Part shown: piece by piece, positions 31,035 to 58,849 of the stretch
Layout of the letters: each line of letters opens with the position of its first letter
How positions within the stretch are numbered: the first letter of the stretch is position 1
IMG/VR virus record: IMGVR_UViG_3300015177_000008
Location: 47,519 to 111,518 of that record
Length of the DNA: 64,000 nucleotides
Source: a virus
Taxonomy: Duplodnaviria > Heunggongvirae > Uroviricota > Caudoviricetes
Reading direction: 5' to 3' (one strand)
Made by a program: the position numbers and the translations under genes
The notes under the pieces: generated by a model
The model's input: the letters and a program-made list of their open reading frames with translations, nothing else
Databases searched by the model: none
What the model was told of the DNA's origin: nothing

Positions 31035-33374
31035 TTACTCTTCTACTGACTCGGTGGGATTGTCTTTTGATCTCCGGTCGTCGATTGCCTGTAAAGCCGC
31101 AATGATTTCAGCTAGTGGCTTCTCCCGATACATCTCGACGATCTGTGATTTGGTGTATTTCTTGTCACCAATTTCTACTCGACCGCTGGCGTTCTTTGGC
31201 AGGTATCCTTCTTCCAGCATGTACTCGACGAGCGACTCGATAACGTCGAGGCCACGAGTAGGATCGAAGTAGAATTTCCAGGTGCATTTGCCATACGGTG
31301 GTGCAACTTTGTTTTTGATGCACTCTGCGCCTACGTCCTGACCGATCTTCTCTTTCCCATCCTTCATCACCGATGCACCGAGACGGATGCGCACAGAAGC
31401 GTAAAACTTCGGTGAATCGCCGCCTGGAGACGTAGTAGGGTCGCCAAACATTACACCGATTTTTGTGCGAACCTGATTCAAGAAGATGATGCAGGCGTTG
31501 TATTTGCGTGCCCACAAAGCCAGAGTGGGGAAGTTCGCACTCGTCGCACGAGCCAGCGCCGTATTGTCGTTCATGTTTAGCTGATCTTTGTCTTTGGCAG
31601 TGCCTTCAGCCATCTTTTCGAACTTCTCGGCTTTGGAGTTCGGAACCATAGACGCAAGTGAGTCAGCCACGATACAGATAGGTGCTGATTCAGGAATAAG
31701 CTCTTCATCACGTACCAATTTAAGAATTGTGCCGATCAACTCTACAGAGTCTTCGAAGGTATCAGGCTGCTTGTATACCCACTGACCGTCATCCTCATCT
31801 GCATTCAAACCATTGGCTACAGCCAGGCCAACGTCAAAACTGTTTTCATGATCGAGGAATACCGCCAGACCATCTTGTTTTTGAGCGGAGATCATCGCTG
31901 CTGTTGCAAGGAATGTGTTGTGGCTGATAATCCCGTTAGACCAGAAAGAGTGTGTTTCCGGCATCGCTACGTCGAACGTTGGTGCTTCACCTTCCTCAAT
32001 AGCCACGACTTCGTCGTAGAACAAGTTAGAGCCAATTACCGCTGCCAGTTGTGCAAACAGATGCTCGTTAAAACGATTCTTTCTGCCAATGAAGGAGACA
32101 TAGATTTCTCGCAGTTTGTCTATTCCGACACGATCGCCGCGGCCAATAACGTGGTCTACCAGAGCGTAGTCTTCACGGGTGGTCTTGGTGAGCGACTCGT
32201 AGAGTGATTTCACTAAGCCGCTGATGTGCGGAACATAGCCTGAGTAAGTGCGGTCAAAACCAATGTCCCGTTTGGTTGCCACTGATAAACGTGCCGGAGA
32301 TTCGAAACCAATCGTTGACAGAAAAAGGTCGTAATTAGAGCCACTGAATGACAGCCGGTAATATGTATTTTCATAACCCGCGACGTGTTTTTCAGAGATA
32401 GTTGACGTAATCCCCAGATTCAGGAGCATGAGGCGAATTTGCTGTAGCAGCAGCCCACTCGCGCTCACAACCTCAATGCAGCGACCATCATTGACGTGGC
32501 ATTCCAGCTCAAAGTAGCCGCGAAGGAATGCAATTTGAGCCTCGCTATTGGCGCGACGCACACTCAACGGAACCTGCTTGCCAGCAGCTTTCTCATACTC
32601 CAGACCATATTCTTTAAAAAGCAGCGAACGCACCTCTTTGCTAAACAGCACATGGTCTTCCGAGCCGTTATGTTTTCTCGTAACTGGCATCTTGTCTGAT
32701 ACCAGCGAAATGAGGCGGTAGTACTCATCCTTGATGAAAGGATCTGTGTTAGAAAAATTCACTGAATTTTCAGAGGCCACGTATCCGTCAGCAATTAAAT
32801 AGCCCATCAGTTTTGCGATATTGGCATCCAGGTGCTGATCGCCGAATTGATGTGTGCCAACCATTGAAGGAATCGTGTCGCCTACACTGATTTTTTCAGC
32901 ATGTCGCCAGACGACATTACCTAAGTCGTCAACCACACGGATTGGGTGACGGAACGTAGCCTCGATATAACCGCCTGATGCCAGCTTAATACGCTTGAAT
33001 TTGCGACGGTTGTTCCATGTCAGGTGTGAGGTCTTCTCTATCACGCCATTTTCATTGATGAGTCCAACGTTATGCTCTACATCGCGAGTAGTGCATGTCG
33101 CTTTGTACCCTTCAATCTCAAACAACTCTTTCACTGTTACCATTCCACGCTCCGTCAGCAGCATGGTGTCTGCGGTAACACATTTCCCCGCACTTGGAGG
33201 ACCGAATACTTCGACGATACGACCACATGGGAAGCCGCCATCGTAACGACCAGAAATAGCTTTGTTTAACGGTGGAAAGCCTGTATCAATCCAATGAGTT
33301 ACTTTCTGAATTTCGTCGTTGCTACCGATTTTCTTTTTCAGAGCAAGTGCCAGTGCGGATTTTCCTTTTGCCAT
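31035..33374 (-). CDS. recA: RecA-family recombinase interrupted by an intein
   Basis: Exteins GRIVEVFGPPSAGK...TFLATAAM and FLNQVRTKIGVMFGDPTTSPGGDSPKFYASVRIRLGA resemble RecA; a 422-aa insertion splits the Walker A motif. Confidence 0.8.
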   Translation of the reverse strand: MAKGKSALALALKKKIGSNDEIQKVTHWIDTGFPPLNKAISGRYDGGFPCGRIVEVFGPPSAGKCVTADTMLLTERGMVTVKELFEIEGYKATCTTRDVEHNVGLINENGVIEKTSHLTWNNRRKFKRIKLASGGYIEATFRHPIRVVDDLGNVVWRHAEKISVGDTIPSMVGTHQFGDQHLDANIAKLMGYLIADGYVASENSVNFSNTDPFIKDEYYRLISLVSDKMPVTRKHNGSEDHVLFSKEVRSLLFKEYGLEYEKAAGKQVPLSVRRANSEAQIAFLRGYFELECHVNDGRCIEVVSASGLLLQQIRLMLLNLGITSTISEKHVAGYENTYYRLSFSGSNYDLFLSTIGFESPARLSVATKRDIGFDRTYSGYVPHISGLVKSLYESLTKTTREDYALVDHVIGRGDRVGIDKLREIYVSFIGRKNRFNEHLFAQLAAVIGSNLFYDEVVAIEEGEAPTFDVAMPETHSFWSNGIISHNTFLATAAMISAQKQDGLAVFLDHENSFDVGLAVANGLNADEDDGQWVYKQPDTFEDSVELIGTILKLVRDEELIPESAPICIVADSLASMVPNSKAEKFEKMAEGTAKDKDQLNMNDNTALARATSANFPTLALWARKYNACIIFLNQVRTKIGVMFGDPTTSPGGDSPKFYASVRIRLGASVMKDGKEKIGQDVGAECIKNKVAPPYGKCTWKFYFDPTRGLDVIESLVEYMLEEGYLPKNASGRVEIGDKKYTKSQIVEMYREKPLAEIIAALQAIDDRRSKDNPTESVEE
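31917..33182 (-). mobile_element. Intein with LAGLIDADG homing-endonuclease domain inside recA
   Basis: Starts with Cys directly after GPPSAGK, ends ...SHN followed by Thr; LAGLIDADG-type blocks LMGYLIADGYV and LRGYFELECHV. Confidence 0.7.
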
Positions 33375-36479: not shown

Positions 36480-36704
36480 ATGAAGCAACATCCGAATAAG
36501 CATATTCAAGCAGCCATTGACTATGCATTAAGTAAAGGCTGGATCTGGGTAGCAGCTGGTGGTGCTGCACATTGTTTTTGCAGACTGCGATGCGGTAATC
36601 CAGAAGGTGAACACAAAACTCACCAAATGAGCGTATGGTCGACTCCGGGTAATCCCGAAAACCATGCCAAACAGATCAAACGAATGGTTGATCGTTGTAA
36701 ATGA
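36480..36704 (+). CDS. Small basic protein, possible HicA-like toxin
   Basis: 74 aa; KGW...AH...HKTH pattern loosely like HicA; first gene of a two-gene plus-strand insert. Confidence 0.3.
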   Translation: MKQHPNKHIQAAIDYALSKGWIWVAAGGAAHCFCRLRCGNPEGEHKTHQMSVWSTPGNPENHAKQIKRMVDRCK

Positions 36705-36764
36705 TTTCAAGGCGGCATTAGCCGCCTTTTGCAGAAACTGTCCAACTATCTTCAAAGGAAAACT

Positions 36765-37328
36765 ATGGCGCTTTATAACTTCACTCTGACGCTCTCAGGC
36801 GTATCGTATGAGACGGAAGGACTGGAAGACGCGCTGTACCAAAACGGCTGTGACGATGCGCTAATTTGCGCATATGGAAACTCCGTCTATGTAGAATTTG
36901 ACCGCGAAGCACAATCACTTGATGCAGCTATCGCATCTGCGGTCGACAATATTGAATCAGCCGGTATCGGTGCAATTGTTGAATCCGTCGACTCGGCTCT
37001 TGTGGGCTTAAGCGATATCGCGGAACTGACAGACCTGTCTCGCCAGGCAGTGGCGTTGCTCAAAGACGGTAAGCGCGGAAGCGGCGACTTCCCTTGCCCT
37101 GTACAACGCATAAAAGGCCAGTCTCCTCTCTGGGATTGGGCTGATGTGGCTGAATGGCTCATGAATAACGGACGACTTAAAGAGGGCGATCAAATTGTCC
37201 AAAATGCCCGAACTTTGAGTAAATGGAATCTGGCGCTTCGAAACAGCGTCTCGAAAGATTTCAACGAAATAGAGCAAATTGCGGAGAAACTGATTAAACG
37301 CCGCAAAGATATTGCGAAATGCGCATAA
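36765..37328 (+). CDS. HTH-containing protein, possible HicB-like antitoxin
   Basis: ATG at 36765 after AAGGAAAA; helix-turn-helix LSDIAELTDLSRQAVALLKDGKRG; terminator-like hairpin atgcccgccaattggcgggcat follows. Confidence 0.35.
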   Translation: MALYNFTLTLSGVSYETEGLEDALYQNGCDDALICAYGNSVYVEFDREAQSLDAAIASAVDNIESAGIGAIVESVDSALVGLSDIAELTDLSRQAVALLKDGKRGSGDFPCPVQRIKGQSPLWDWADVAEWLMNNGRLKEGDQIVQNARTLSKWNLALRNSVSKDFNEIEQIAEKLIKRRKDIAKCA

Positions 37329-38151: not shown

Positions 38152-38178
38152 CCCGCCAACAGGCGGGTTTTCTTTATT
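38152..38178 (+). terminator. Rho-independent terminator
   Basis: cccgcc aaca ggcggg followed by ttttctttatt; abuts the dnaE stop on the other strand. Confidence 0.5.
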
Positions 38179-41100
38179 ACTTATTTATTGTCTCCGCGAT
38201 ATCAGCCAGAATGGCCTCCAGTCGCTCTCCTTCTTCCGGTCGGAAGTACAGGATATTCGGGTTAAATCCGTAGAAGACGGTTGCATCAAGCTCTGGGAAG
38301 TACTCCTTACGACCAATCAGATCTGATGGTTTACTCTTATTGTTAAATAGTGCGGTTGAACGACTACCACACGTCAAAATGTAGGTTGGTCGTACAAGAT
38401 TAATTTCTTCCCGCATAAAGTCTGTGAACTGGCCTATCTCGTCTTTGGTATAGTCTTTCTCTTTGTCCTTAACCTTCTTACAAACACCCGTGACATAAAG
38501 ATCGCCCATGCGCAGATCTCCAACTGTCAGTAGTTTTGCCTTAAAGTCGTCGTATCCGTTCTCCATGAAGTAGCCGGTACGAGCGTCATTGCCGTTCGCA
38601 TTGTCCAGAATGATCATGATTTTGGGTTTAATACCAATAGTCGGGCGTATCAACTCCTCACCCAAGCCCATTTCAGCCGCCATACGTGTCATGAGTACGT
38701 TGATTTCGGCAGAACGCTTAGGATTCATTTCGAACGGACGTGATGCTTTAACAGCGTCAATGATGAGATTGCCCATCAGCTCAGCCTGGTCGCGCAGTCG
38801 TTCAGGATCAGTTGCTGGCAGACTGCCTGGCTCAATTGACGCAAAAGCCCCTACTTTATGAAGCGACTCGCGTACACGACTGTTACATGCACGCTTCTCG
38901 ACCGCTTCATCGAATTGTGCCACTGACTCGAATTTGCCACCAACTTTCTCACGCGCACGCATAATTGCCTGACAACCATTTTCAGAACAGCCTTTCACAG
39001 CAGAGAATGGCGCATACAGTGCCTGACTGCCGTCTTCGAGTGTGCGGATCTCAATTCGGTTAGATGACACATTAACGTCTGGTGGCAATACGCGAATGCC
39101 ATAGGTCAGCGCATCCTTCACCAGCCCCTGATGCTTATCCTCGCCCAGAATGGTGAGCGCAGCTGCGAAGAACTCAGCAGGGTAGTGCGTCTTTAGCCAC
39201 ATAGACTGATAACTGATTAAAGAATAAGCAACGGAGTGTGATTTATTGAACTGATAGGCTCCGTTTTTCTCAAATGCGGTCCAGATCTCCTTCGCTTTCA
39301 TCTCTGATAGCCCTGGATGTGACGCTGTAACGCGTACTGCGTTTATAGGTAGTTTTGCGCCGTGCTCAAGTGCCTCTTCGACAGTTTTCAGAGTTCCGTC
39401 TTCGCATTTAAAATGTTCCGCACGGTGAATGCGCTGTGTAGTGCCATCTTCCAGCTCAACGTCTATCCAGCCAGCTTGAGCCTGAACGATGAACTTCTCG
39501 CCCATGCTCTTCATTTTTTCCATGTTCTTCTTACCGATTGCGGAACGCACAGCGTCAGCTTCAGCCATTGTGAAGCCGGCAAGCAATCGAGTCGCGTTCA
39601 TCGTCTGTTCCTGATAGAGAATCACGCCATTTGTTTCCGCGGTAAGTTTATCAAGAACGGGGTGTAATGATTCCGGCGTCATAAAGCCTTTGGCGACAGA
39701 AACATAGTCATCCAACATGCCTGATTGAATTGGCCCCGGCCGGAAGAGCGCAGTTGTAGCGACGACCGTTTTAAAGCTCATTGGCTCAATTCCACCACCT
39801 AAATCTTTAAGCAGCTTGCGCATTGGGCCTGATTCAAGCTGGAAAACACCTTGAGTGTACCCAGCAGCAAAACCATCCAGCACCTTGCGATCTTCAAGAG
39901 AAATGGCATCAAGATTGATATCTTCACCTGTGTTCTCTTTTATGTAGCGTTTTGCACTATCGAGCAAATCGAGAGTTGCCAGGCCAAGCACGTCCAGCTT
40001 AATTAGGCCCATAGCCTCGCAGTAACGCTTGTCAAATGCGATACAACGCGCGTCACCACGGCGCTCAACCGGTGTACGTTCTGTCAGAGGAACACCTGCT
40101 ACGATCATCCCTGCCGCATGTCTACCAAAGCCACGCATAAGGCTTTGTAACTTGCAGGCTGCATTGAATGCATCAGGATATTTTGTTGCGTATTTGTCGA
40201 GACTTGCCAGTTGTTCGCGCAGTTCTTCCAATGGAAGGCTATCATCCTCAGCGTTCTTCAGTTCTTTTGATACCGCCATATCTGCGGACTCCACACCATA
40301 AATACGAGCGGTGTCACGTAGTGCAGAGGCTGCGCCCAGGTAGGTGAAGTTCGGAATGCCTGCAACGTAATCTTCGCCGTAGCGTTCATTCAGATACTCG
40401 ATCACCTCATGGCGACGTGCCTGGCTGAAGTCCAAATCCGCATCTGGCAAGTCGAGACGCTCAGGGTTGATGAAACGCTCAAACAGAAGACCGTGACGGA
40501 TTGGGTCGACGTTGGTTATGCCTATGCACCACGCCACCAGAGAACCGGCAGAGGAACCACGACCAGGCCCAACGGGAATGCCAGTTTCACGACTATGATT
40601 CATCAGATCGCGCACCATCAGGAAGTAACCACAGAATCCCAGGCGAGTCAGCGTGTCCATTTCGTACTTTAGCCGCTCAACATAAACCCTGTTCTCAGAA
40701 GCAGGTGGTGTGTATCCAAACTCTTTTGTGGTAAGACGTTTACGCAGCCCTGCAACAGCCAGTTTCATAAGCGTTGCAGGCTCGTCGTCTGCCATCTTTG
40801 GCAGTGCTGGCGGCAATTCATGCCAGCGCCATGTGCAGGCATCGATAATGGTATCCTGCGTTGTTGAGGCCATTGCAGCTGTTACCGGCACATCCATGCG
40901 AACGGAGAAGGCTTTAAGCGCCTCAAGGAGATGGCGGCGACCATTGACGGCGTTATCTCGCTGGTGGGGGATACGCAGACGATGCGGCTGGTCGATTTTG
41001 ATGTTGTTCGTAACCATGTGCGCAATGTCTTTAATGTCTGCATCGTCGATCGATTCGTAATAAGCGGGATAGAACGCCACTGGCTCTATTTTCAATGCGC

Positions 41101-41695
41101 TGGCGACTTTCATCGCCCGGACGTTAATCTGGTCGTAGAATGGGGTAGGGTGCGGATAAACCACACTATAGAAGTTGTCTTTTCCACCCGCTGTAATCAG
41201 TGTGCTTATGATTTTTGCAAAATCGTTGCGTTGGAACACGCTACCGATGTCGGAAGTAAGCAGGATGATGTTGCCTTTGGCATATGTAGAAACCAACTGT
41301 TCGAGCGAGAGACGCGGTACAAAGTAGAACTGTTCTCGTGTGTTGGCCGCCGTCATTAGTTCGCAGATGTCGCGATATCCTTGCTCATTTTTAATTAGAG
41401 CGGTAAACGAGTAGTTACGTCCCCGCTCTAATGATTCCATACATCTCATAGATTCTTTAGCAAGTTTAGCCCGGTGCTCGTATGTGGGATCATCAACAAT
41501 GTTTAGTTTCACACCACAAATAACCGCCATGTCGTCACCAGCGGCACGTTGTAGTGGAATAACGCTCGCAATATTCATGCTATCTGCTGAAATTACAGCG
41601 GTGTAGCCAGCTTCTCTGGCAATCTTCACCGCGTTTTCTGCTTTTAGAGCCGACTCCCCAAGTGAGAAGTCAGTTCGAACCATCAGTGCCTTCAT
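38177..41695 (-). CDS. dnaE: DNA polymerase III alpha subunit (DnaE family)
   Basis: 1172 aa; N-terminal PHP-like region and polymerase-core motif GRGSSAGSLVAWCIGIT; start context GGTAAAAACACATG. Confidence 0.85.
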   Translation of the reverse strand: MKALMVRTDFSLGESALKAENAVKIAREAGYTAVISADSMNIASVIPLQRAAGDDMAVICGVKLNIVDDPTYEHRAKLAKESMRCMESLERGRNYSFTALIKNEQGYRDICELMTAANTREQFYFVPRLSLEQLVSTYAKGNIILLTSDIGSVFQRNDFAKIISTLITAGGKDNFYSVVYPHPTPFYDQINVRAMKVASALKIEPVAFYPAYYESIDDADIKDIAHMVTNNIKIDQPHRLRIPHQRDNAVNGRRHLLEALKAFSVRMDVPVTAAMASTTQDTIIDACTWRWHELPPALPKMADDEPATLMKLAVAGLRKRLTTKEFGYTPPASENRVYVERLKYEMDTLTRLGFCGYFLMVRDLMNHSRETGIPVGPGRGSSAGSLVAWCIGITNVDPIRHGLLFERFINPERLDLPDADLDFSQARRHEVIEYLNERYGEDYVAGIPNFTYLGAASALRDTARIYGVESADMAVSKELKNAEDDSLPLEELREQLASLDKYATKYPDAFNAACKLQSLMRGFGRHAAGMIVAGVPLTERTPVERRGDARCIAFDKRYCEAMGLIKLDVLGLATLDLLDSAKRYIKENTGEDINLDAISLEDRKVLDGFAAGYTQGVFQLESGPMRKLLKDLGGGIEPMSFKTVVATTALFRPGPIQSGMLDDYVSVAKGFMTPESLHPVLDKLTAETNGVILYQEQTMNATRLLAGFTMAEADAVRSAIGKKNMEKMKSMGEKFIVQAQAGWIDVELEDGTTQRIHRAEHFKCEDGTLKTVEEALEHGAKLPINAVRVTASHPGLSEMKAKEIWTAFEKNGAYQFNKSHSVAYSLISYQSMWLKTHYPAEFFAAALTILGEDKHQGLVKDALTYGIRVLPPDVNVSSNRIEIRTLEDGSQALYAPFSAVKGCSENGCQAIMRAREKVGGKFESVAQFDEAVEKRACNSRVRESLHKVGAFASIEPGSLPATDPERLRDQAELMGNLIIDAVKASRPFEMNPKRSAEINVLMTRMAAEMGLGEELIRPTIGIKPKIMIILDNANGNDARTGYFMENGYDDFKAKLLTVGDLRMGDLYVTGVCKKVKDKEKDYTKDEIGQFTDFMREEINLVRPTYILTCGSRSTALFNNKSKPSDLIGRKEYFPELDATVFYGFNPNILYFRPEEGERLEAILADIAETINK

Positions 41696-41873
41696 GTGTT
41701 TTTACCTTTCTGGTTTTTTTGATTTTGTCATTGGGGAAGCCTACGAACTTCCCATGCATCGAAATCGCAACTTCTTTTGCTGATTGGTGACAATCGGGCT
41801 TGTCTGGACACACCAGACAAGCCTTACCAGTTTCAGAAGCAGCGATAAGAGAGCCGAAACATCCTTTACGCAC
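41670..41873 (-). CDS. Small Cys-rich protein (possible zinc ribbon)
   Basis: 67 aa with C-x-x-CPDKPDC; overlaps the dnaE start by 26 nt. Confidence 0.3.
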   Translation of the reverse strand: MRKGCFGSLIAASETGKACLVCPDKPDCHQSAKEVAISMHGKFVGFPNDKIKKTRKVKTHEGTDGSN

Positions 41874-41875
41874 GA

Positions 41876-43111
41876 TTAACCAAATATTTTTTGAACAACT
41901 TCACGAGCCGCTTGTGCAGAAGCTGAAGGGAGTTTGTTAATGAAAGAACGCTCAATACCTGTCACAAAGTCGCCTCGCATCATTCCAATCTTGGCCGACA
42001 ACAAAAGTTCACGAGGGCCAATTGGCTGACTAATAAGGTGTTCTTCGTATCCATCGCGAACGATACCGGCAAACTTAACCATCTTTTCAGCGTATTCATC
42101 CACGATGCCTGCATTTATCAACATGTTGATCTCTGCGTCTTTGCTCATGTATTTCACATTCGAAACGATGCCAAAACGCGAAAAGTTCGCGGCGTTCTGG
42201 ATGTTTGTACCCTGGTACAAGCCGGTTTCATCACCAGATCCGTTCGTGTTGCCAGTGCCAATGAAAGCAAACCGTTCATGCGGAGTAATGCGACGCCATT
42301 CTGGAGTCGCCTCTTTGATGACCAACGCCTCACCTTCCAGCACTGGCTGATACACGCCAAGAATTTGTGGAAACGCAAAGTCGTATTCATCCGCGAGGTA
42401 AACCCAGCCATGCTTCATTGCGAGCGCAAGCAAGCCAGGCTCGAAATACGTAGAGCCATCACGCGCCAGAATTTGCCCCGTAACATGTGCCTCTTCCATT
42501 GATGCTGTATGTTGGGCACGGATCAACGGACGATTGAGCAAAGCACATAGCTGTGTAGGCAATGACGATTTGCCTGTTCCTGCATGACCCCACAAATAGC
42601 CAGGTATGCCAAGTTCAAGCATCATGAAAATATCTTTGATCAGTTCGAAGTCGCCATATACGTAGCCCTTCTTCACTTCTGGAACGAACTCTGGATACGG
42701 CGTATTGACGTTGACGCTAACCATGAGCGGCGTCCCACGTTTTGTTCCGAGTTCTTCCACCGTTACGTTTAGCAGTTCGTGAGCTGCGACCAGATCTGTC
42801 TTGTACTCAACTGTGCCTGTGTAACCAGGGCTACTGGTCAAGCCAGAAGATTTGGCCATTTCGCTTTTTTGCTCGGCACGTTTAGCTTGAATTGCATCAA
42901 GTGCCTTTTTCGATAGCGTTGGCTCATCTGGAAACTGCGTTGTGTACATTTTCAGTACGGTGTCAGGATCGGCATCTTTTACTGACTCAGGAATGCCCTC
43001 GCAATTACCATTGGCTACATGGGACTTAAAATAGTGAAATGATTTGCCGCACCACTTGCAAACAAGGTAATCAGAATGATTTTTTTCATTTTGCAGTGCA
43101 GTAGTCGTCAT
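41876..43111 (-). CDS. CobS-like AAA+ ATPase (MoxR family)
   Basis: Walker A GHAGTGKSS and Walker B LADEYDFA; paired with a VWA-domain protein. Confidence 0.65.
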   Translation of the reverse strand: MTTTALQNEKNHSDYLVCKWCGKSFHYFKSHVANGNCEGIPESVKDADPDTVLKMYTTQFPDEPTLSKKALDAIQAKRAEQKSEMAKSSGLTSSPGYTGTVEYKTDLVAAHELLNVTVEELGTKRGTPLMVSVNVNTPYPEFVPEVKKGYVYGDFELIKDIFMMLELGIPGYLWGHAGTGKSSLPTQLCALLNRPLIRAQHTASMEEAHVTGQILARDGSTYFEPGLLALAMKHGWVYLADEYDFAFPQILGVYQPVLEGEALVIKEATPEWRRITPHERFAFIGTGNTNGSGDETGLYQGTNIQNAANFSRFGIVSNVKYMSKDAEINMLINAGIVDEYAEKMVKFAGIVRDGYEEHLISQPIGPRELLLSAKIGMMRGDFVTGIERSFINKLPSASAQAAREVVQKIFG

Positions 43112-43172
43112 GCGTTTTTCCTTTGTTCTCTAATGAGCGTTCAACTTCTTATATAAATATACCATTAACTAT

Positions 43173-43190
43173 CGTAAGTGCTTACTTATC
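43173..43190. promoter_or_regulatory. Class-2 AT-rich palindrome
   Basis: cgtaagtgcttacttatc upstream of the CobS-like gene. Confidence 0.35.
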
Positions 43191-43206
43191 ATTAAGGCTG
43201 TTTTAT

Positions 43207-45315
43207 TCACTTCAAAATGATACGAGATAGTTCAGTAACTACAGATGAACCAAGACTATCAACGCTCGTTACCAGGGCATGATTTGAGTAAAATCTCTCC
43301 GGTGCGTCAGTCATGATGCCAATTGCCATCAAATCAATGTCAGTCTGCGTTTCAATTTGCTTCGCAACCGAACGCAAATGAGCGTCAAAACCTCTCCCAA
43401 CAGCCCACGGCGCGCCATCGCTCAGAACAAGCATGATCTTCCTGTCCTCCAAGCGACCGGAAAATAACGATGCAAGGCTGGCTATGCTTTCACCATCCAC
43501 GTTATTAAGAAGTGGGAATGTGTAGCCTACGCACCCCATACGTGAGCGAACTTCGCGAGAATTTGCTTTTTCATTCCAATTTTTGATGATAGGTAGCATT
43601 AAAGATTCAAAGCGAGAGAACTCATATTTGATAGCCTTAAGTTCTCCTGCTGCCATATGACTGCCAAATGTAGTGAAGCCGGTGATAATGTTGGGAACAT
43701 TTATTCGATCAAGTGCATCGGCGATGGTATATGCACTTGCAAGAGCTAGTTTTATCGTTTCGCCACTCATTGAACCCGATAAATCAATCACTTGTTGAAC
43801 ACAGGCGTTAACGGCTTTAGATTCTTCTTTTTTACGAAACACGCGATCATCATTCATTGTTAATCTGTAGATACTTGAACCATGAATGCGCCCCCGACGC
43901 TGGCCAGGTATAAACTGAACTCTGTTTCTGCTTGCTATTGCACGTTCCAGGTCTTTTGCCAGCGTCGACGAAACACCTGACGAAAGGTGCTTTTCAATAT
44001 ATTTGTCGAAGAGTTGGTTGCCTTCAGGAACGATGCGATAACGGCTGATTGGATATCCACCTAAATCAATATCGGAGAATGTTTTAATAAGCCGTTTGAT
44101 ATGGGCTTCTGCCTGATCAATCGAGCCGATGAAGTCGTATGAGCGATTGTATGGCCTGTATTCGCTTTTCGAGCTTTCTGTTAACTCGCTTTTAATCGTT
44201 TCGGATAGCGCATCTTCTGTCATGCCTCCGACTTCATCTTCCATGCTATCCAACTCCTCTAAAGCCTCTTCCAGACTCATTTTTGACGGAGTTGGAATGT
44301 CTGAAGAGCCGTCTTCTGTCGATTTTCTTTTTTCGTGGTCAGTGGTAAATGATTCTGACGCCGCGTTATCAGAAGCACCAGAATCTGATACCTCTTTATC
44401 ATTTTCTGTATCATCGAATATTGTTTCTGATGATTCAGAATTATCTGAATCATCACTGTCGTTATTATCATGTTTGTGCTTACTGTGTGATTCTGATTTG
44501 ATAGATTTGTGATTATCTAACGCTGGGGGTGTCTCATGATCTTCGTTGTCTTCATTGTTTTCTCCAGAGGCATCCGTCTGGTCAGCGTCTGAAGGATCGG
44601 AAGTTTTTCCCGGAGCTGACTCCTTACCTTTGCTTTCACTTTCAGTGTCTTTGAGGATCTTAGCTATGGTCGCAGCCACCTTTACACAATCCTCGGTGCA
44701 AGACATGTTACGCACGGCCACATCGATACCATGTTCTTTTAATAATGAAATTGGTTTCTCAATGACAGGCCAATATTCATCCATGAAATCTACGAACGGT
44801 GCTTGGCCATCCCAGGCTCTTACAACCGGACAGAGAAAGAAGTTTAGAAAAAGCGCGCGCTGATCTTTACCACAATAAGCAATAGCCTCTGAAGCCTTTG
44901 GTTTAAAGACTTTTTCGATTATAAGGCGCTGAGTTGCCATCAGATTACGTCTTGTTCCGTTAAAGACCTGACCCATTTTTCGCTCGATGAACACGTCTTC
45001 TAAGGCATTCCATAGCGACCAGGAAGGAACGCGTCCTTTTTCTCTCATTTTGTTGGACACACGAATATCGGTAAACAAAATGTGAGCAACCTCATGATCG
45101 AGAAATCCGCGCACAGCATTCATCAATGCCGGTGTTGCGTTATCCGGGATTGATGGGATGTTTACGAGAATTGGCTCTCCATCATCGTTATAGCGTACAT
45201 AAGCGTCGTCCCCTCGTTCTGCAACAGGGATGTTTTTACCTGAAAGGAGAGCGACTACTCGTTTTACACTGTCACGGAAGTCCTGAACCTCTTTGATGGA
45301 ATGTTTTTTAGACAT
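43207..45315 (-). CDS. CobT-like protein with von Willebrand A domain
   Basis: MIDAS-type DLSGSM; long acidic Ser/Asp/Glu-rich low-complexity insert; degenerate class-1-like site upstream. Confidence 0.6.
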   Translation of the reverse strand: MSKKHSIKEVQDFRDSVKRVVALLSGKNIPVAERGDDAYVRYNDDGEPILVNIPSIPDNATPALMNAVRGFLDHEVAHILFTDIRVSNKMREKGRVPSWSLWNALEDVFIERKMGQVFNGTRRNLMATQRLIIEKVFKPKASEAIAYCGKDQRALFLNFFLCPVVRAWDGQAPFVDFMDEYWPVIEKPISLLKEHGIDVAVRNMSCTEDCVKVAATIAKILKDTESESKGKESAPGKTSDPSDADQTDASGENNEDNEDHETPPALDNHKSIKSESHSKHKHDNNDSDDSDNSESSETIFDDTENDKEVSDSGASDNAASESFTTDHEKRKSTEDGSSDIPTPSKMSLEEALEELDSMEDEVGGMTEDALSETIKSELTESSKSEYRPYNRSYDFIGSIDQAEAHIKRLIKTFSDIDLGGYPISRYRIVPEGNQLFDKYIEKHLSSGVSSTLAKDLERAIASRNRVQFIPGQRRGRIHGSSIYRLTMNDDRVFRKKEESKAVNACVQQVIDLSGSMSGETIKLALASAYTIADALDRINVPNIITGFTTFGSHMAAGELKAIKYEFSRFESLMLPIIKNWNEKANSREVRSRMGCVGYTFPLLNNVDGESIASLASLFSGRLEDRKIMLVLSDGAPWAVGRGFDAHLRSVAKQIETQTDIDLMAIGIMTDAPERFYSNHALVTSVDSLGSSVVTELSRIILK

Positions 45316-45413
45316 GGCTAATCCTTTGTTATGAAAACAAATTATTTACTAGTGTGTTTAATGTAGCACTGCGCGAACAGGGAACTAAGCCATTCGCGCA
45401 GGGAGAAGAGGGG

Positions 45414-47819: not shown

Positions 47820-47861
47820 TGTTACCTCATAGAATTGATATGCAACTTTACTCACAAAGAA

Positions 47862-47883
47862 GATAGGTATGTGCATACTTATC
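47862..47883. promoter_or_regulatory. Class-2 AT-rich palindrome
   Basis: gataggtatgtgcatacttatc between the glutaredoxin gene and the plus-strand membrane protein gene. Confidence 0.35.
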
Positions 47884-47993
47884 TTTGCAGTCTGCATTAT
47901 AAAGCTATTAAAGCCTCGATCAATCTATTAATTAAGGCATTGTTTGGTTAACATTACCCTAATATTTTATAGTTAGTAGAGTGAAATACATAC

Positions 47994-49256
47994 ATGCCTT
48001 TTTTAATTTTCATTATTATACTACTGCTCACCGTGATTTTTTGGGATTGGGTTGTTTTAAATGGTCAAATTGTTGGAACATTGGCTACAGCATTTGCTTT
48101 TATAGCAACAGCATGGAATGCCTACGAAGCGAGAAAAAGTGCAAAAGCAGCTTTTTCAGCCCTTCAATTAACAACAGAATCATTGTTCGAAATGCGAAAG
48201 AGTGCATTTAAACAATGGTTTGATTCCTTATTAAATCAACATGATGAGCTATGTCTTCTTGCAAAACAAATTATCGATAAACGCAAAATTAATTTAAACA
48301 GCGATGAGTTACATAGACTATATTACCCATTGGTAAAACAGCATGAGGTAATACAGTATGTGAAGCATATTATTAATATTTTTGAGTATGTGGATAGTTC
48401 ATTTTATATTGATGGGGAATGTCTAAAGGAAAAAAGAGCGTATGTGTCACAATTAATTTTCAAAATCCCACCTCAGATGAAGTTGATTATTGCTATCTTT
48501 GGATTAAAGATCGATTATTGTGAACATATTAATTCGGGAAAACTGTGTTGTTTATTAAATAAATATGATTTTTTCAATGATGAAATATTTTTTGATGATG
48601 CTTATTCAGATATGCCTTATCTGGATGCATTCATAAACCTTAGATTCAACAAAATATTCAAATCTCGAATGATAAATTATTTTGATAATATCATTAAAAG
48701 TTATTATGTTCCATCGGACGTTAAAAGGGACTGGATGTTTCGAGACCCAAAGCTCGTACCGTCGGTTCTTATGAATTATAAAACTCCTTGTTCTCCTATA
48801 ATTAATGATTACTTTGAGAAGTTGCCTTTACATGTAAGAGACTACTTTGAGAAAGTACTTAAAACTGCGCATGATAGAGTTACTAATTTTGATGCTTACA
48901 TCCCACGCCTTATTGGTTGTTCAATCGTACAACGTTACGAAGATGTACCTTCCGAAAAAAACAGGTTAAATGACAGGAACGATGTAATAGCTATGGCTGA
49001 AGATTACATCGAGAAAAGGAGATCTAATCAACTAGATTACAGACTTGAAAATATATACTTTAAGAGTGACAAAGATATAATCCCAGGCCACAATTTGATT
49101 GTGGCATTTGATGACTATGAATATAAATTAGCACTAATTAAGATAAATGAAAATAAAGATAACGGCAGTCTTTTACATCGAATTTACATTGAATCTTGTG
49201 ACATGGTTAAAGAATATAAGCGCGAAATATTAAAACTGGGCGACTATGTAAAGTAA
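47994..49256 (+). CDS. AT-rich membrane-anchored protein of unknown function
   Basis: 420 aa; two N-terminal TM helices then an Ile/Lys/Asn/Tyr/Phe/Asp-rich domain; GC clearly lower than the backbone; followed by a strong terminator. Confidence 0.5.
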   Translation: MPFLIFIIILLLTVIFWDWVVLNGQIVGTLATAFAFIATAWNAYEARKSAKAAFSALQLTTESLFEMRKSAFKQWFDSLLNQHDELCLLAKQIIDKRKINLNSDELHRLYYPLVKQHEVIQYVKHIINIFEYVDSSFYIDGECLKEKRAYVSQLIFKIPPQMKLIIAIFGLKIDYCEHINSGKLCCLLNKYDFFNDEIFFDDAYSDMPYLDAFINLRFNKIFKSRMINYFDNIIKSYYVPSDVKRDWMFRDPKLVPSVLMNYKTPCSPIINDYFEKLPLHVRDYFEKVLKTAHDRVTNFDAYIPRLIGCSIVQRYEDVPSEKNRLNDRNDVIAMAEDYIEKRRSNQLDYRLENIYFKSDKDIIPGHNLIVAFDDYEYKLALIKINENKDNGSLLHRIYIESCDMVKEYKREILKLGDYVK

Positions 49257-49271
49257 ATTGCACTGTTCAAC

Positions 49272-57916: not shown

Positions 57917-58027
57917 CATAACTTGTCGTCTTAGACGCCCAGAAGCTCTACACTTTGAGCCTGTTAAATTGATTAAAAACTTATGTGTAAAATAGAACGC
58001 ATTAGTCAGTAGCTAAGAGATGCAATA

Positions 58028-58795
58028 ATGGACGATTTATCGGTATACGCGAGATCATTGGATAAGGCTAAATACTATGTTTATTGTCTCTATGATACAG
58101 AAGACAAGATGAAAAGACCGTTTTACATAGGAAAAGGCAAATCGACTCGTTGTCTCGATCACATCAAGTATCCCGATGACTCTCCCAAATCCATGCGGAT
58201 CAAAGAACTTTTGGCTAATAAAAAATTAGGCATAGATATTCTTCGTCATGGTATGGATGAAACCACAGCCAAACTTGTTGAGGCGACATGCATCGACCTT
58301 ATGGGGGTCGGAGAGCTTACGAATAAGGTACGAGGAAGTGGTTCCATGATGGGCAGAATATCACTGGACGCCTACCATCACTTAGTGCTGCAAGAGGAAA
58401 CTGAAATTGCTCCTGAGCACGCCGGTCTTGCCTTCCTGCTAAACAGCACCTACAAGTCAGGAATGTCCGCTCTGGCATTATATGAAGCTACGCGTGGCGT
58501 ATGGGCAAAGGTTCCAAGAGACGAGAATCTCAAATATGCCTACGCTACATATGGTGGGCTGATAATGGAAGTTTATCAGATTGAATGCTGGGTCAAAGCC
58601 GGTTCTCAGCAGTACTTTACAAGGGATATAGCTCTTGGCCCCGACACAAAACGTTATGAATTTGTTGGCAGAATAGCCGATGAGCATATTAGAAAACTGT
58701 ATGTAGGCAAATTAATCAAGAAGCCACCAAGCTACGGTAGCCCTTTTGTGAAGGTTGGGGTGGTTAGGACTGAACATAGTGTTAGTGCGGCATAA
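58028..58795 (+). CDS. GIY-YIG endonuclease (free-standing, homing-endonuclease-like)
   Basis: GIY-YIG-like N-terminus YYVYCLYD...PFYIGKGKSTRCLDH; isolated plus-strand gene with its own terminator. Confidence 0.55.
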   Translation: MDDLSVYARSLDKAKYYVYCLYDTEDKMKRPFYIGKGKSTRCLDHIKYPDDSPKSMRIKELLANKKLGIDILRHGMDETTAKLVEATCIDLMGVGELTNKVRGSGSMMGRISLDAYHHLVLQEETEIAPEHAGLAFLLNSTYKSGMSALALYEATRGVWAKVPRDENLKYAYATYGGLIMEVYQIECWVKAGSQQYFTRDIALGPDTKRYEFVGRIADEHIRKLYVGKLIKKPPSYGSPFVKVGVVRTEHSVSAA

Positions 58796-58811
58796 AGCTG
58801 ACACTGTAGTT

Positions 58812-58849
58812 ATGCATTGGCGCAATATACGCGCCAATGCATGATTTTT
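58812..58849. terminator. Bidirectional rho-independent terminator
   Basis: atgcattggcgc aatata gcgccaatgcat then gaTTTTTaa, between convergent genes. Confidence 0.6.

What the first reader, a model, noticed from the sequence alone, without database searches (positions are those of the whole stretch)
41876..45315. CobS-like AAA+ ATPase and CobT-like VWA protein embedded in the replication gene array
The pair resembles cobaltochelatase subunits but sits between dnaE and the regulator genes of a phage-type replicon, with a small Cys-rich ORF between CobS and dnaE. Its role in phage DNA metabolism is not established; the long acidic low-complexity insert in the VWA protein is unusual.
Basis: partly seen in the sequence, partly recalled or inferred. 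Interest (0 to 1): 0.45.

Follow-up and report, generated by a model that had tools for sequence, protein, structure and literature searches.

The report
Phage CobS/CobT-like motor with peptidase motif
A phage-plasmid of E. coli carries a two-gene relative of the cobalt-inserting enzyme of vitamin B12 synthesis that almost certainly does not make B12: it looks like an ATP-driven motor with a DNA-binding zinc finger, paired with an adaptor that has kept a zinc-protease motif, and it heads the phage's DNA-replication genes.

Summary
Two minus-strand ORFs at exactly the stated coordinates encode a CobS-like AAA+ ATPase (411 aa) and a CobT-like VWA protein (702 aa). A 67-aa Cys-rich ORF and dnaE follow them. 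The window is an SSU5-like phage-plasmid, 98% identical to phage Cyrano.

The pair is well known in phages and is usually labelled a B12 or "porphyrin" metabolic gene. That label does not fit here:
- Both proteins score far below the NCBIfam equivalog cut-offs (87 vs 558 bits; 74 vs 759 bits).
- No cobN or other B12 gene is on the element.
- The phage's ribonucleotide reductase is class Ia.

The acidic linker is typical of the family, not unusual.

Features that differ from genuine CobST:
- The CobT-like N-domain keeps an HExxH…E zincin motif: 60/64 diverse ~100-kb phages, 57/57 cyanophages, and IncC plasmids. It is absent from 0/80 alphaproteobacterial CobT.
- The CobS-like N-terminus is a Ros/MucR-type zinc finger.
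- The gene order cobT–cobS–(sigma)–Cys4–dnaE is conserved in 80 divergent viral contigs.
- A distant AAA+ homologue in IncC plasmids (Vcrx089) is experimentally anti-restriction.

Best reading: a CobN-independent, DNA-tethered motor/adaptor that remodels and possibly cleaves a protein. Its client is unknown. Novelty: a new variant of a known kind. Interest is moderate.

The parts
43207..45315 (-). CobT-like adaptor protein (702 aa): zincin-like N-domain, acidic linker, shaft segment, VWA/MIDAS domain
   Evidence: Pfam CobT E 4.5e-27 and CobT_C E 1.5e-82. PHROG 1576 E 5e-299. TIGR01651 gives only 73.9 bits against a cut-off of 759. Solved Brucella CobT matches at E 3e-17 over the C-domain.
44641..45315 (-). 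N-domain of the CobT-like protein (aa 1-225), M48-like zincin fold
45082..45096 (-). HEVAH (H74-E75-x-x-H78), zincin metal-binding/catalytic motif
   Evidence: Translation verified. H74, E75 and H78 are invariant in the 53-sequence alignment A7. The motif is present in 60/64 diverse viral relatives and 57/57 complete cyanophage relatives. It is absent from 0/80 alphaproteobacterial CobT.
44983..45009 (-). N103-x2-E106-D107-x3-E111, conserved 'glutamate helix' candidate for the third metal ligand
   Evidence: N103 and E111 are invariant in A2. N103, E106, D107 and E111 are at least 90% conserved in A7. The motif is found in 59/68 viral relatives.
44026..44640 (-). Acidic, S/D/E/N-rich disordered linker (about aa 226-430)
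   Evidence: Composition and comparison with viral and genuine CobT linkers. It corresponds to the ~90-aa disordered linker of Brucella CobT (preprint 10.64898/2026.07.21.739949).
43813..43932 (-). Segment equivalent to the CobT 'shaft' (aa 462-501) that inserts into the CobS ring
   Evidence: Aligns with Brucella CobT Q373-R413, directly before the MIDAS strand. G475 is invariant in A2.
43771..43785 (-). MIDAS DxSxS (D511-L-S513-G-S515); further MIDAS residues N604 and D633
   Evidence: Translation verified. Aligns with Brucella D422/S424/S426/N518/D546. DxSGSM is present in 68/68 viral relatives.
41876..43111 (-). CobS-like AAA+ ATPase (411 aa)
   Evidence: AAA_5 E 2e-15. PHROG 249 E 3e-106. 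TIGR01650 gives only 87 bits against a cut-off of 558.55. Brucella CobS matches at E 5e-26.
43019..43060 (-). Ros/MucR-type zinc-finger motif at the N-terminus of the CobS-like protein (C18-x2-C21 ... H26 ... H31; C37 is the probable fourth ligand)
   Evidence: Translation verified. CxxC-x4-H-x4-H occurs in 65/70 distinct viral relatives. The top PDB hit of profile A9 is Ros87 (2jsp_A), E 2.6e-4. Pfam ROS_MUCR hits are sub-threshold in 3 of 4 relatives.
41879..42688 (-). AAA+ core (aa 142-411) with Walker A G175-S182, Walker B D241-E242, sensor-1 N288, Arg finger R312 and sensor-2 R367
   Evidence: Residue-by-residue alignment to Brucella CobS, with motif positions. All are invariant in alignment A1 of 24 diverse relatives. 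Walker A translation verified.
41670..41873 (-). 67-aa Cys4 ORF (GCFG-x13-CxxC-x5-C), translationally coupled to cobS-like and dnaE
   Evidence: PHROG 6337 E 3e-45, with a weak match to the N-terminus of the 222-aa PHROG 3616. The same motif heads 176-229-aa proteins between cobS-like and dnaE in Pseudomonas, Rhizobium and Acinetobacter elements and in 73/80 viral contigs. No Pfam family matches.
38177..41695 (-). dnaE (Pol III alpha), the downstream member of the conserved module (context)
   Evidence: Pfam PHP, DNA_pol3_alpha, finger and HHH_6 domains. It lies downstream of cobS-like in 73/80 diverse viral contigs.

Best explanation
The two genes encode a mobile-element version of the CobS/CobT motor-adaptor pair that works without CobN and is not a cobalt chelatase. 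By homology with the solved CobST complex, CobS-like forms an ATP-hydrolysing AAA+ ring. CobT-like docks on that ring and inserts its 'shaft' segment into the pore. A client protein is then held between the CobT-like VWA/MIDAS domain and its N-domain. Two features are new relative to the chelatase. First, the N-domain keeps an intact gluzincin site (HExxH plus a glutamate helix), so the client is probably cleaved as well as strained. Second, the motor carries a Ros/MucR-type zinc finger, so the machine is probably recruited to DNA. The genes open the lytic replication operon and are silent in the plasmid state. I therefore infer that the pair acts at the onset of lytic DNA replication on a DNA-associated protein. 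The leading candidate is a host obstacle to phage DNA, such as a restriction/defence complex or a nucleoid silencer. A phage replisome component is less likely. Shown here: the homology, motif integrity, conservation patterns, synteny and the absence of a B12 context. Inferred: ring/shaft assembly, peptidase activity, DNA tethering and the identity of the client.
For: Motor-adaptor architecture:
- All AAA+ catalytic residues, the shaft segment and the five MIDAS residues align with the solved Brucella CobS/CobT and are conserved in relatives (preprint read).

Not a chelatase:
- NCBIfam equivalog scores are 87 vs 558 bits and 74 vs 759 bits.
- There is no Pfam CobS_N match, unlike genuine CobS.
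- No cobN or B12 genes occur in the window or in the complete Cyrano genome, and dnaE is the only ORF of CobN size.
- The phage RNR is class Ia NrdAB.
- Relatives occur in phages of E. coli, Salmonella, Klebsiella, Acinetobacter and V. cholerae.

Zincin site:
- HExxH is present in 60/64 diverse viral, 57/57 cyanophage, IncC and Acinetobacter relatives. It is present in 0/80 alphaproteobacterial CobT, which carry D-S-[MI]-A-L at the homologous columns.

DNA tether:
- The N-terminal profile hits Ros87 first (E 2.6e-4), and the ligand spacing is identical in relatives.

Timing and context:
- The order cobT-cobS-(sigma)-Cys4-dnaE holds in 73-78 of 80 divergent contigs.
- The pair heads the replication block in ICP2, cyanophage, Nickievirus, Rhizobium phage and an Acinetobacter phage-plasmid.
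- In the LF82 lysogen transcriptome the adjacent repressor CYRAN_45 is listed as expressed, but CYRAN_46-49 are not.

Precedents:
- IncC Vcrx089, an AAA_5 ATPase 30% identical to the window protein (E 4e-27), together with Vcrx090 lowers type I restriction 400-900-fold.
- ArdC is a DNA-binding gluzincin that counters HsdRMS.
Against: - No experiment exists on any phage CobS/CobT.
- The peptidase motif has been lost in a few lineages (phiK7B1 SEISK; L172/173/176 QEVAK; L143 HEVAR), so catalysis cannot be universally essential.
- The model coordinates could not be inspected for metal-site geometry.
- The window's own zinc finger is divergent: the fourth ligand is probably C37 rather than His, and it gave no Pfam hit.
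- The finger is absent from the cyanophage, ICP2 and IncC versions.
- By its ATPase core the window protein is no closer to Vcrx089 than to genuine CobS (distances 0.77 vs 0.78).
- Vcrx090 has no homologue in the window.
- The IncC VWA gene was not flagged in the TnSeq screen.
- ArdC's anti-restriction activity survived an active-site mutation.
- Conserved synteny may reflect shared ancestry of these phages rather than functional coupling.
Confidence: 0.5

Rival explanations
1. Genuine auxiliary metabolic gene: viral CobST teams up with a host CobN (or CobN-like chelatase subunit) to boost cobalamin synthesis for the phage. This was proposed for tailed viruses in general by Liu et al. 2021.
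For: The pair is homologous to CobS/CobT over the motor, shaft and MIDAS. The C-domain scores 277 bits on Pfam CobT_C. The hypothesis is published (PMC8651126).
Against: - Scores are far below the equivalog cut-offs.
- No cobN is present on the element.
- By established knowledge, E. coli has no de novo pathway and Salmonella uses CbiK. Engineering B12 synthesis in E. coli required heterologous cobN, cobS and cobT.
- The phage RNR is B12-independent class Ia.
- The HExxH site is conserved in viral versions but absent from all 80 genuine CobT examined.
- A DNA-binding finger on the motor has no role in chelation.
Confidence: 0.04
2. Specific version A: a host-defence evasion module like the IncC/SXT hde genes. 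The motor-adaptor disables type I (or other) restriction complexes on incoming or replicating phage DNA.
For: - The Vcrx089/090 deletion raises EcoKI/EcoBI restriction 424-906-fold (PMC11602122; PMC7498323).
- The window proteins are the only two homologues shared with that IncC region.
- The IncC VWA protein shares the HExxH N-domain (32% identity over aa 1-187).
- ArdC provides a precedent.
- The genes sit at the start of the lytic operon.
Against: The ATPase similarity to Vcrx089 is no greater than to genuine CobS. Vcrx090 is absent. The VWA gene is not implicated in IncC. No PADLOC or anti-defence model hit was obtained beyond this homology.
Confidence: 0.2
3. Specific version B: a maturation or maintenance chaperone for a phage DNA-metabolism metalloprotein (the DnaE PHP domain, RNR NrdB, or a replisome part). 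This would be analogous to NorQD, CbbQO or CoxDE, which sit next to their clients.
For: - Linkage to dnaE is tight and conserved, and cobS-Cys4-dnaE are translationally coupled.
- MoxR/VWA pairs typically neighbour their client genes (discussion of the preprint).
- A YfaE-like RNR-maintenance ferredoxin lies near the IncC VWA gene.
Against: - The pair accompanies three unrelated polymerase types: DnaE, cyanophage T4-type replisome genes (sliding clamp and clamp loader next to the pair), and PolA in ICP2.
- ICP2 has no RNR.
- IncC plasmids have no polymerase or RNR.
- A conserved protease motif is not expected for a metal-insertion chaperone.
Confidence: 0.15
4. Functionless or decaying passenger genes kept only by linkage.
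For: None beyond the lack of any known phenotype.
Against: The ORFs are intact, with all catalytic residues conserved across relatives only 35-45% identical. The pair is present in 494 phage records and 1716 plasmid records, and cobST is described as part of the cyanophage core genome.
Confidence: 0.02

Closest known systems
Aerobic cobaltochelatase motor-adaptor CobS/CobT (Brucella melitensis CobSTN, PDB 9ujv/9uka; TIGR01650/TIGR01651)
   Same: An AAA+ clade-6-type ATPase core with all catalytic residues. The CobT architecture is shared: M48-like N-domain, acidic disordered linker, shaft, VWA with MIDAS. The two genes are adjacent.
   Different: About 30% identity, and scores at 10-16% of the equivalog cut-offs. 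The gene order is reversed (T then S). There is no CobN partner, no CobS_N domain, and an extra Ros-type zinc finger on the motor. The N-domain has an intact HExxH where genuine CobT has D-S-M-A-L. The genes lie in a phage replication operon of a host without the aerobic B12 pathway.
Phage 'cobS/cobT' genes (PHROG 249 / 1576; cyanophage core genes; Vibrio phage ICP2; haloarchaeal tailed viruses, Liu et al. 2021)
   Same: This is that family. The same pair and order occur next to replication genes, HExxH is conserved, and the genes are annotated as porphyrin or cobalamin biosynthesis.
   Different: The SSU5-like / ~100-kb DnaE-phage clade adds the Ros-type finger and the Cys4 (and often sigma) genes. 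The cyanophage and ICP2 versions lack these.
IncC/SXT-R391 hde region: Vcrx089 AAA_5/CbbQ_C ATPase (+Vcrx090) and the downstream CobT_N-VWA protein
   Same: The ATPase is homologous (30% identity, E 4e-27). The VWA protein is homologous over its full length and has the same HExxH N-domain. Both are mobile-element-borne and lie beside DNA-metabolism genes (ssb, bet, exo).
   Different: The ATPase and VWA genes are separated by five genes. Vcrx090 is absent from the window. The IncC VWA domain is only weakly CobT_C-like (19.7 vs 277 bits). The anti-restriction phenotype is shown only for Vcrx089+090.
MoxR-class AAA+/VWA chaperone pairs (NorQ/NorD, CbbQ/CbbO, CoxD/CoxE, RavA/ViaA)
   Same: An AAA_5 motor plus a MIDAS-bearing VWA adaptor acting on a third protein. 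NorQ and CbbQ are sequence-detectable relatives.
   Different: Those adaptors are not known (to me) to carry an active zincin domain, and their motors carry no DNA-binding finger. Their clients are encoded next door and are known.
DNA-dependent gluzincins ArdC / Spartan (SprT) / IrrE
   Different: They are single polypeptides without an AAA+ motor or VWA domain. The fold similarity is marginal, and ArdC's catalytic residue was dispensable for its phenotype.

Membership tests
Cobaltochelatase subunit CobS (TIGR01650, EC 6.6.1.2) | Score at or above the curated equivalog cut-off | tested here: not met
   87 bits against a cut-off of 558.55.
Cobaltochelatase subunit CobS (TIGR01650, EC 6.6.1.2) | AAA+ catalytic elements (Walker A/B, sensor-1, Arg finger, sensor-2) | tested here: met
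   G175-S182, D241-E242, N288, R312 and R367 align with Brucella G71-S78, D141-E142, N186, R210 and R271. All are invariant in 24 relatives.
Cobaltochelatase subunit CobS (TIGR01650, EC 6.6.1.2) | CobS_N N-terminal domain (PF12556) | tested here: not met
   Genuine Rhizobium CobS hits CobS_N at E 1.5e-16. The window protein has no hit at E<=0.01 and carries a Ros-type finger instead.
Cobaltochelatase CobNST holoenzyme | A CobN catalytic subunit available (on the element or in the host) | tested here: not met
   None on the element: no annotation in Cyrano, and no ORF over 1000 aa other than dnaE in the window. The host genome was not searched here. By established knowledge E. coli lacks the de novo pathway, and heterologous cobNST were needed to engineer it.
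Cobaltochelatase subunit CobT (TIGR01651) | Score at or above the curated equivalog cut-off | tested here: not met
   73.9 bits against a cut-off of 759.05, and only the C-domain aligned.
Cobaltochelatase subunit CobT (TIGR01651) | Architecture: N-domain, acidic disordered linker, shaft, VWA with MIDAS | tested here: met
   Pfam CobT + CobT_C. Linker. Shaft and MIDAS D511/S513/S515/N604/D633 aligned to Brucella. N-domains are homologous by hhalign, 85% probability, E 6e-6.
Cobaltochelatase subunit CobT (TIGR01651) | N-domain in the catalytically dead state seen in genuine CobT (D-S-[MI]-A-L at the HExxH position) | tested here: not met
   The window has H74-E-V-A-H78. 0/80 alphaproteobacterial CobT have HExxH.
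MoxR-class AAA+ / VWA motor-adaptor pairs (functional class) | An AAA_5-type ATPase adjacent to a MIDAS-containing VWA protein | tested here: met
   The two genes are adjacent, 95 nt apart, on the same strand.
Gluzincin (M48-like) metallopeptidase | HExxH on one helix plus a conserved Glu on a following helix | tested here: met
   H74/E75/H78 are invariant; N103, E106, D107 and E111 are at least 90% conserved. HExxH lies in predicted helix 62-81 and the Glu motif in helix 99-117. Which Glu is the ligand is not resolved.
Gluzincin (M48-like) metallopeptidase | Zincin fold | tested here: inconclusive
Gluzincin (M48-like) metallopeptidase | Zinc binding and peptidase activity | not testable with these tools
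   Needs biochemistry.
Ros/MucR prokaryotic zinc-finger DNA-binding domain (PF05443) | Profile-level sequence similarity to Ros87, including the ligand spacing C-x2-C-x9-H-x4-H | tested here: met
   Profile A9 hits 2jsp_A first, E 2.6e-4. The aligned segment covers both Cys and both His plus the T-x2-EYR motif. The spacing is present in 65/70 viral relatives.
Ros/MucR prokaryotic zinc-finger DNA-binding domain (PF05443) | Pfam gathering threshold reached by the window protein itself | tested here: not met
   The window N-terminus has no ROS_MUCR hit. Relatives give 13.6-19.9 bits against a cut-off of 25.4. In the window the fourth ligand position is Asn36, with Cys37 adjacent.
IncC/SXT Hde anti-restriction module (Vcrx089-Vcrx090) | Specific orthology to Vcrx089 | tested here: inconclusive
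   30% identity, E 4e-27, but the protein is equally distant from genuine CobS.
IncC/SXT Hde anti-restriction module (Vcrx089-Vcrx090) | Presence of the Vcrx090 partner | tested here: not met
   phmmer of the IncC region proteins against all window ORFs returns only the AAA and VWA proteins.
IncC/SXT Hde anti-restriction module (Vcrx089-Vcrx090) | Protection from type I restriction | not testable with these tools
   Needs plating or transfer assays on r+/r- hosts.

The most novel reading that the evidence does not exclude
The 'cobS/cobT' genes counted as vitamin-B12 auxiliary metabolic genes in hundreds of phage genomes (a core gene pair of marine cyanomyoviruses) and in about 1,700 plasmids would in fact be a distinct machine. 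An AAA+ ring, tethered to DNA by a Ros-type finger in the SSU5-like clade, would pull on the shaft of a VWA adaptor. The adaptor's live zincin site would then cut a DNA-bound host protein: a restriction/defence complex, a xenogeneic silencer or a replication roadblock. This would be a bacterial-virus counterpart of the Cdc48/Wss1-Spartan logic. Genuine CobST would be a derivative that lost the protease site when it was coupled to CobN.
Probability: 0.15. Interest if true: 0.8.

Novelty: new variant of a known kind. Interest (0 to 1): 0.5.

Why it matters
- **Annotation.** Phage cobS/cobT are routinely scored as B12 or "porphyrin" metabolic genes in viromics, and this is used to argue that viruses steer host cobalamin metabolism. 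If the mobile-element versions are CobN-independent remodellers or proteases, those inferences are wrong for a very large gene family: 494 phage records and 1716 plasmid records here, including clinically important SSU5-like and IncC elements.
- **Testability.** The sequence differences found here give direct, cheap experimental handles on a long-unexplained conserved phage gene pair: a live HExxH site versus the dead site in genuine CobT, a DNA-binding finger on the motor, and the fixed position at the head of the replication operon.
- **Evolution.** They also offer a possible evolutionary route to the cobalt chelatase motor.

Tried and rejected
- **Single-sequence and 6-sequence profile searches of the CobT-like N-domain against PDB sequences.** They found no genuine CobT_N. 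Homology had to be shown by profile-profile comparison.
- **Foldseek of the N-domain model against the PDB.** Nothing was significant.
- **First homologue search with the full CobT-like protein, and the first two viral scans.** They returned only near-identical SSU5-like sequences. Diversity came only after reordering the alignment.
- **The 98-hit N-domain search showing 96/98 HExxH.** I do not use it as evidence of conservation. The search collects candidates by shared exact words, which favours that very motif. The unbiased samples are those chosen through the neighbouring cobS-like gene.
- **Promoter/terminator and repeat scans of 41.5-46.4 kb.** They gave no more than chance, so I make no claim about the operon's promoter.
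- **PADLOC.** It gave only a marginal DrmE hit in the low-complexity linker; I rejected this as compositional.
- **Neighbour-joining distances of the ATPase core.** The window clade, IncC, cyanophage, ICP2 and genuine CobS are roughly equidistant. No tree-based assignment to Vcrx089 or to CobS is justified, and no maximum-likelihood program was available.
- **RNR as a universal client.** Rejected, because ICP2 and IncC have the pair but no RNR.
- **Literature searches for expression or knock-out data on phage cobS.** They found nothing.

Full report
**What the window is.** The region 41.6-45.4 kb is 97-98% identical to Escherichia phage Cyrano (the phage-plasmid pLF82), CMS-2020a and PhiR41_1, and 75% identical to Salmonella phage SSU5. 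The whole window is collinear with Cyrano apart from a few small islands. It is therefore an SSU5-like phage-plasmid of E. coli.

**Checking the observation.**
- The first carries an AAA_5 domain. It matches PHROG 249 ("porphyrin biosynthesis", E 3e-106) and the solved Brucella CobS (E 5e-26, aa 142-411).
- The second matches Pfam CobT (E 4.5e-27) and CobT_C (E 1.5e-82) and the solved Brucella CobT C-domain.
- A 67-aa Cys-rich ORF (41670-41873) starts 2 nt after the cobS-like stop and overlaps the dnaE start by 26 nt.
- Upstream lie a 70-aa ORF, a divergent HTH repressor-like gene and an integrase.

**Is it a cobaltochelatase?** No.
- Against NCBI's equivalog models the proteins score 87 bits (cut-off 558.55) and 73.9 bits (cut-off 759.05).
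- Genuine CobS from a Rhizobium chromid has the CobS_N domain; the window protein does not.
- The chelatase needs CobN, and none is present. The complete annotation of Cyrano has no cobN or other cobalamin gene. The window-specific islands encode MarR, PerC, GIY-YIG and similar proteins. The only ORF above 1000 aa in the window is dnaE.
- By established knowledge E. coli has no de novo B12 pathway and Salmonella inserts cobalt with CbiK. Engineering B12 synthesis in E. coli required heterologous cobN, cobS and cobT (bioRxiv 10.1101/394338).
- The phage's own ribonucleotide reductase is class Ia NrdA/NrdB with glutaredoxin, which is B12-independent.

The published idea that viral CobST hijacks host CobN (Liu et al. 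2021, PMC8651126) cannot apply to this host.

**What is conserved with genuine CobST.** A 2026 preprint (10.64898/2026.07.21.739949) describes the Brucella CobSTN structures:
- a CobS hexamer ring;
- CobT built of an M48C-peptidase-like N-domain, a ~90-aa disordered linker and a VWA C-domain, whose preceding "shaft" (Q373-R413) inserts into the ring;
- CobN held between the two CobT domains near the MIDAS site.

Residue-by-residue alignment to the window proteins gives the following:

| Element | Brucella | Window |
|---|---|---|
| Walker A | G71-S78 | G175-S182 |
| Walker B | D141-E142 | D241-E242 |
| Sensor-1 | N186 | N288 |
| Arg finger | R210 | R312 |
| Sensor-2 | R271 | R367 |
| Shaft | Q373-R413 | aa 462-501 (equal length) |
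| MIDAS | D422/S424/S426/N518/D546 | D511/S513/S515/N604/D633 |

All the motor residues are invariant in 24 relatives only 28-57% identical to the window protein. DxSGSM is present in 68/68 viral relatives. The inference that the pair assembles and moves like CobST is therefore well founded, though it remains an inference.

**The acidic linker is normal.**

| Protein set | Linker / inter-domain span | D+E content |
|---|---|---|
| Genuine Rhizobium CobT | 90 aa | 46% |
| 65 viral relatives | median 194 aa (range 91-373) | 35% |
| Window | 160-205 aa | 26-30% |

**Difference 1: a live zincin motif.** The CobT-like N-domain contains H74-E-V-A-H78, followed about 25 residues later by N103-x2-E106-D107-x3-E111. 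To avoid circularity I sampled relatives through the neighbouring cobS-like gene rather than through the motif itself.
- In 80 diverse IMG/VR contigs (CobS-like 38-46% identical to the alignment's lead sequence, a distant relative), 60 of 64 CobT-like proteins with an intact N-terminus have HExxH. The exceptions are QEVAK in one lineage and one HEVAR.
- In a cyanophage sample, 57 of 57 complete proteins have HEVGH. The five proteins without it are all cut by contig ends.
- The motif is also present in Vibrio phage ICP2, a Rhizobium phage, Acinetobacter phage-plasmids and the IncC plasmid VWA protein. It is lost in Pseudomonas phage phiK7B1 (SEISK).
- By contrast, 0 of 80 alphaproteobacterial CobT have any HExxH in the N-terminal part. 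They carry S-[MI]-A-L-[RK].
- Profile-profile comparison shows the two kinds of N-domain are homologous over 195 columns (85% probability, E 6e-6). It places H74/E75/H78 over D/S/L of the genuine "DSMAL".
- An AlphaFold2 model of the window N-domain is confident (pLDDT 90, pTM 0.85). Its topology of helix, three strands and a helical bundle matches that reported for Brucella CobT_N.

The mobile-element proteins thus look like potentially active peptidases, and genuine CobT looks like a dead derivative. [quoted passage not shown] On this evidence the peptidase annotation may not have been a mistake.

**Difference 2: a DNA-binding finger on the motor.** The first ~100 residues of the CobS-like protein have no counterpart in genuine CobS. 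They contain C-x2-C-x4-H-x4-H(-x4-H), found in 65 of 70 distinct viral relatives.
- A profile of this region finds the Ros87 prokaryotic zinc-finger DNA-binding domain (2jsp_A) as its top PDB hit (E 2.6e-4). The alignment covers both Cys, both His and the T-x2-EYR motif.
- Three of four individual relatives give sub-threshold Pfam ROS_MUCR hits.
- The window's own copy is divergent: its fourth ligand is probably C37, and it contains an insertion.
- The finger is absent from the cyanophage, ICP2, IncC and genuine versions, so it characterises the SSU5-like / ~100-kb DnaE-phage clade.

**Difference 3: context.**
- In the 80 diverse contigs the order is [ligase …] cobT-like, cobS-like, often a sigma-70-region-2 protein, a Cys4 protein, then dnaE. 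CobT-like is present in 78/80 and Cys4 and dnaE in 73/80; the shortfalls are mostly at contig ends.
- The same order holds in Pseudomonas phage phiK7B1, Rhizobium phage RHph_N1_10 and Acinetobacter phage-plasmids.
- In unrelated phages the pair still heads the replication block. In ICP2 it precedes primase, helicase and PolA. In cyanophage S-RIM2 it precedes the sliding clamp and clamp loader.
- The window's 67-aa Cys-rich ORF is the N-terminal GCFG-x13-CxxC-x5-C domain of what is a 176-229-aa protein in those relatives. It has no Pfam family.
- In the published LF82 lysogen transcriptome the adjacent repressor CYRAN_45 is listed among expressed genes, but CYRAN_46-49 are not (PMC9928086). This is consistent with a repressed lytic operon. 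It is weak evidence, and no promoter could be assigned.

**A lead from conjugative plasmids.** A protein search of plasmids found the CobT-like N-domain in about 700 conjugative plasmids.
- In IncC plasmid pR148 the order is AAA_5/CbbQ_C ATPase, hypothetical, ssb, bet, exo, DUF3150, then a VWA protein with HEAAH.
- The ATPase corresponds to Vcrx089. Together with Vcrx090 it protects IncC plasmids from type I restriction: a 25-fold effect in V. cholerae, and 424-906-fold for EcoBI/EcoKI in E. coli (PMC7498323 and PMC11602122).
- The window proteins are the only homologues shared with that region.
- Caveats: the ATPase is 30% identical to both Vcrx089 and genuine CobS, and the core distances are equal. 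Vcrx090 is absent from the window. The IncC VWA gene was not flagged in the screen.
- ArdC shows that a mobile-element, DNA-binding gluzincin can defeat HsdRMS. Its catalytic Glu was dispensable for that effect (PMC7213743).

**Most likely mechanism.**
- Shown: a complete AAA+ motor; a CobT-type adaptor with shaft and MIDAS; a conserved zincin motif; a Ros-type finger; a fixed position at the head of the lytic replication genes; no B12 context.
- Inferred: the ring grips the adaptor's shaft as in CobST. A client sits where CobN sits in the chelatase, between the VWA/MIDAS domain and the N-domain, which is exactly where the HExxH site lies. ATP-driven pulling strains the client and the site cleaves it. 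The finger places the machine on DNA.
- The client is unknown. I rank a host DNA-associated obstacle (restriction/defence complex or silencer) first at about 0.2, a phage replisome or nucleotide-metabolism metalloprotein second at about 0.15, and true chelatase activity last at about 0.04.

**Novelty and verdict.** The gene pair itself is already known and widely, probably wrongly, annotated. The function is untested. The live peptidase site versus the dead site in genuine CobT, the DNA-binding finger, the conserved five-gene module and the IncC link make it a new variant of the MoxR/VWA (CobST) kind rather than a member of the chelatase family. Interest is moderate (0.5). A specialist would not be surprised to see cobST in a phage. 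The case that it is a mis-annotated, DNA-tethered remodeller/protease is new and directly testable.

Noticed in passing
window 31035-33374 (-): The RecA-like recombinase is 779 aa because it carries an intein with a LAGLIDADG homing-endonuclease domain (Pfam Intein_splicing, LAGLIDADG_3, RecA). SSU5 has a 358-aa version without it.
   Followed up: partly
window 41670-41873 (-); L091 9317-9859, L092 9841-10371, L097 11174-11863: The 67-aa Cys-rich ORF is only the N-terminal Cys4 domain of a 176-229-aa protein of unknown family. In most relatives that protein follows a sigma-70-region-2-like protein and precedes dnaE. SSU5-like elements have lost the sigma gene and the C-terminal part. A sigma / Cys4 regulator pair is possible but untested.
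   Followed up: partly
window 47831-49270 (ORF 47994-49256, +): A low-GC (0.39) island absent from Cyrano holds a 420-aa ORF with no Pfam family and only a marginal PADLOC PtuB hit (E 9e-4). It is a possible cargo or defence gene next to the integrase.
   Followed up: partly
window 36480-36704 and 36729-37328 (+): A HicA/HicB-like toxin-antitoxin pair sits between the recombination genes and dnaE. The second protein matches PADLOC candidate PDC-M06B (E 1.6e-32).
   Followed up: no
window 58028-58795 (+), in island 57927-58849: An ORF with a LEM-3-like GIY-YIG nuclease domain lies in an island absent from Cyrano, beside the replication genes. It may be a homing endonuclease.
   Followed up: no
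window 45369-45401 (-): A 9-bp GC-rich hairpin (CTGCGCGAA / TTCGCGCAG, 15-nt loop) without a T-run lies in the 98-nt gap between the 70-aa ORF and cobT-like. Its significance is unknown.
   Followed up: no
L096 3039-6873; L199, L227: The alphaproteobacterial 'genuine' cobS-cobT pair is not in a cob operon. In L096 it lies next to BolA and J-domain genes. Close homologues are present in Bartonella genomes. This raises the question (from my own knowledge of reduced alphaproteobacterial genomes) of whether even this pair has a role beyond B12.
   Followed up: no
L095 13613-13837: IncC plasmid pR148 encodes a YfaE-like class I RNR maintenance ferredoxin a few genes downstream of its CobT_N-VWA gene, although the stretch examined shows no RNR.
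   Followed up: no
L091 5847-7931; L172/L173/L176 5910-7838; L143 4238-6226: A few lineages have lost the His ligands of the zincin motif while keeping the Glu (SEISK, QEVAK, HEVAR). This resembles the state in genuine CobT and may mark independent loss of catalysis.
   Followed up: partly
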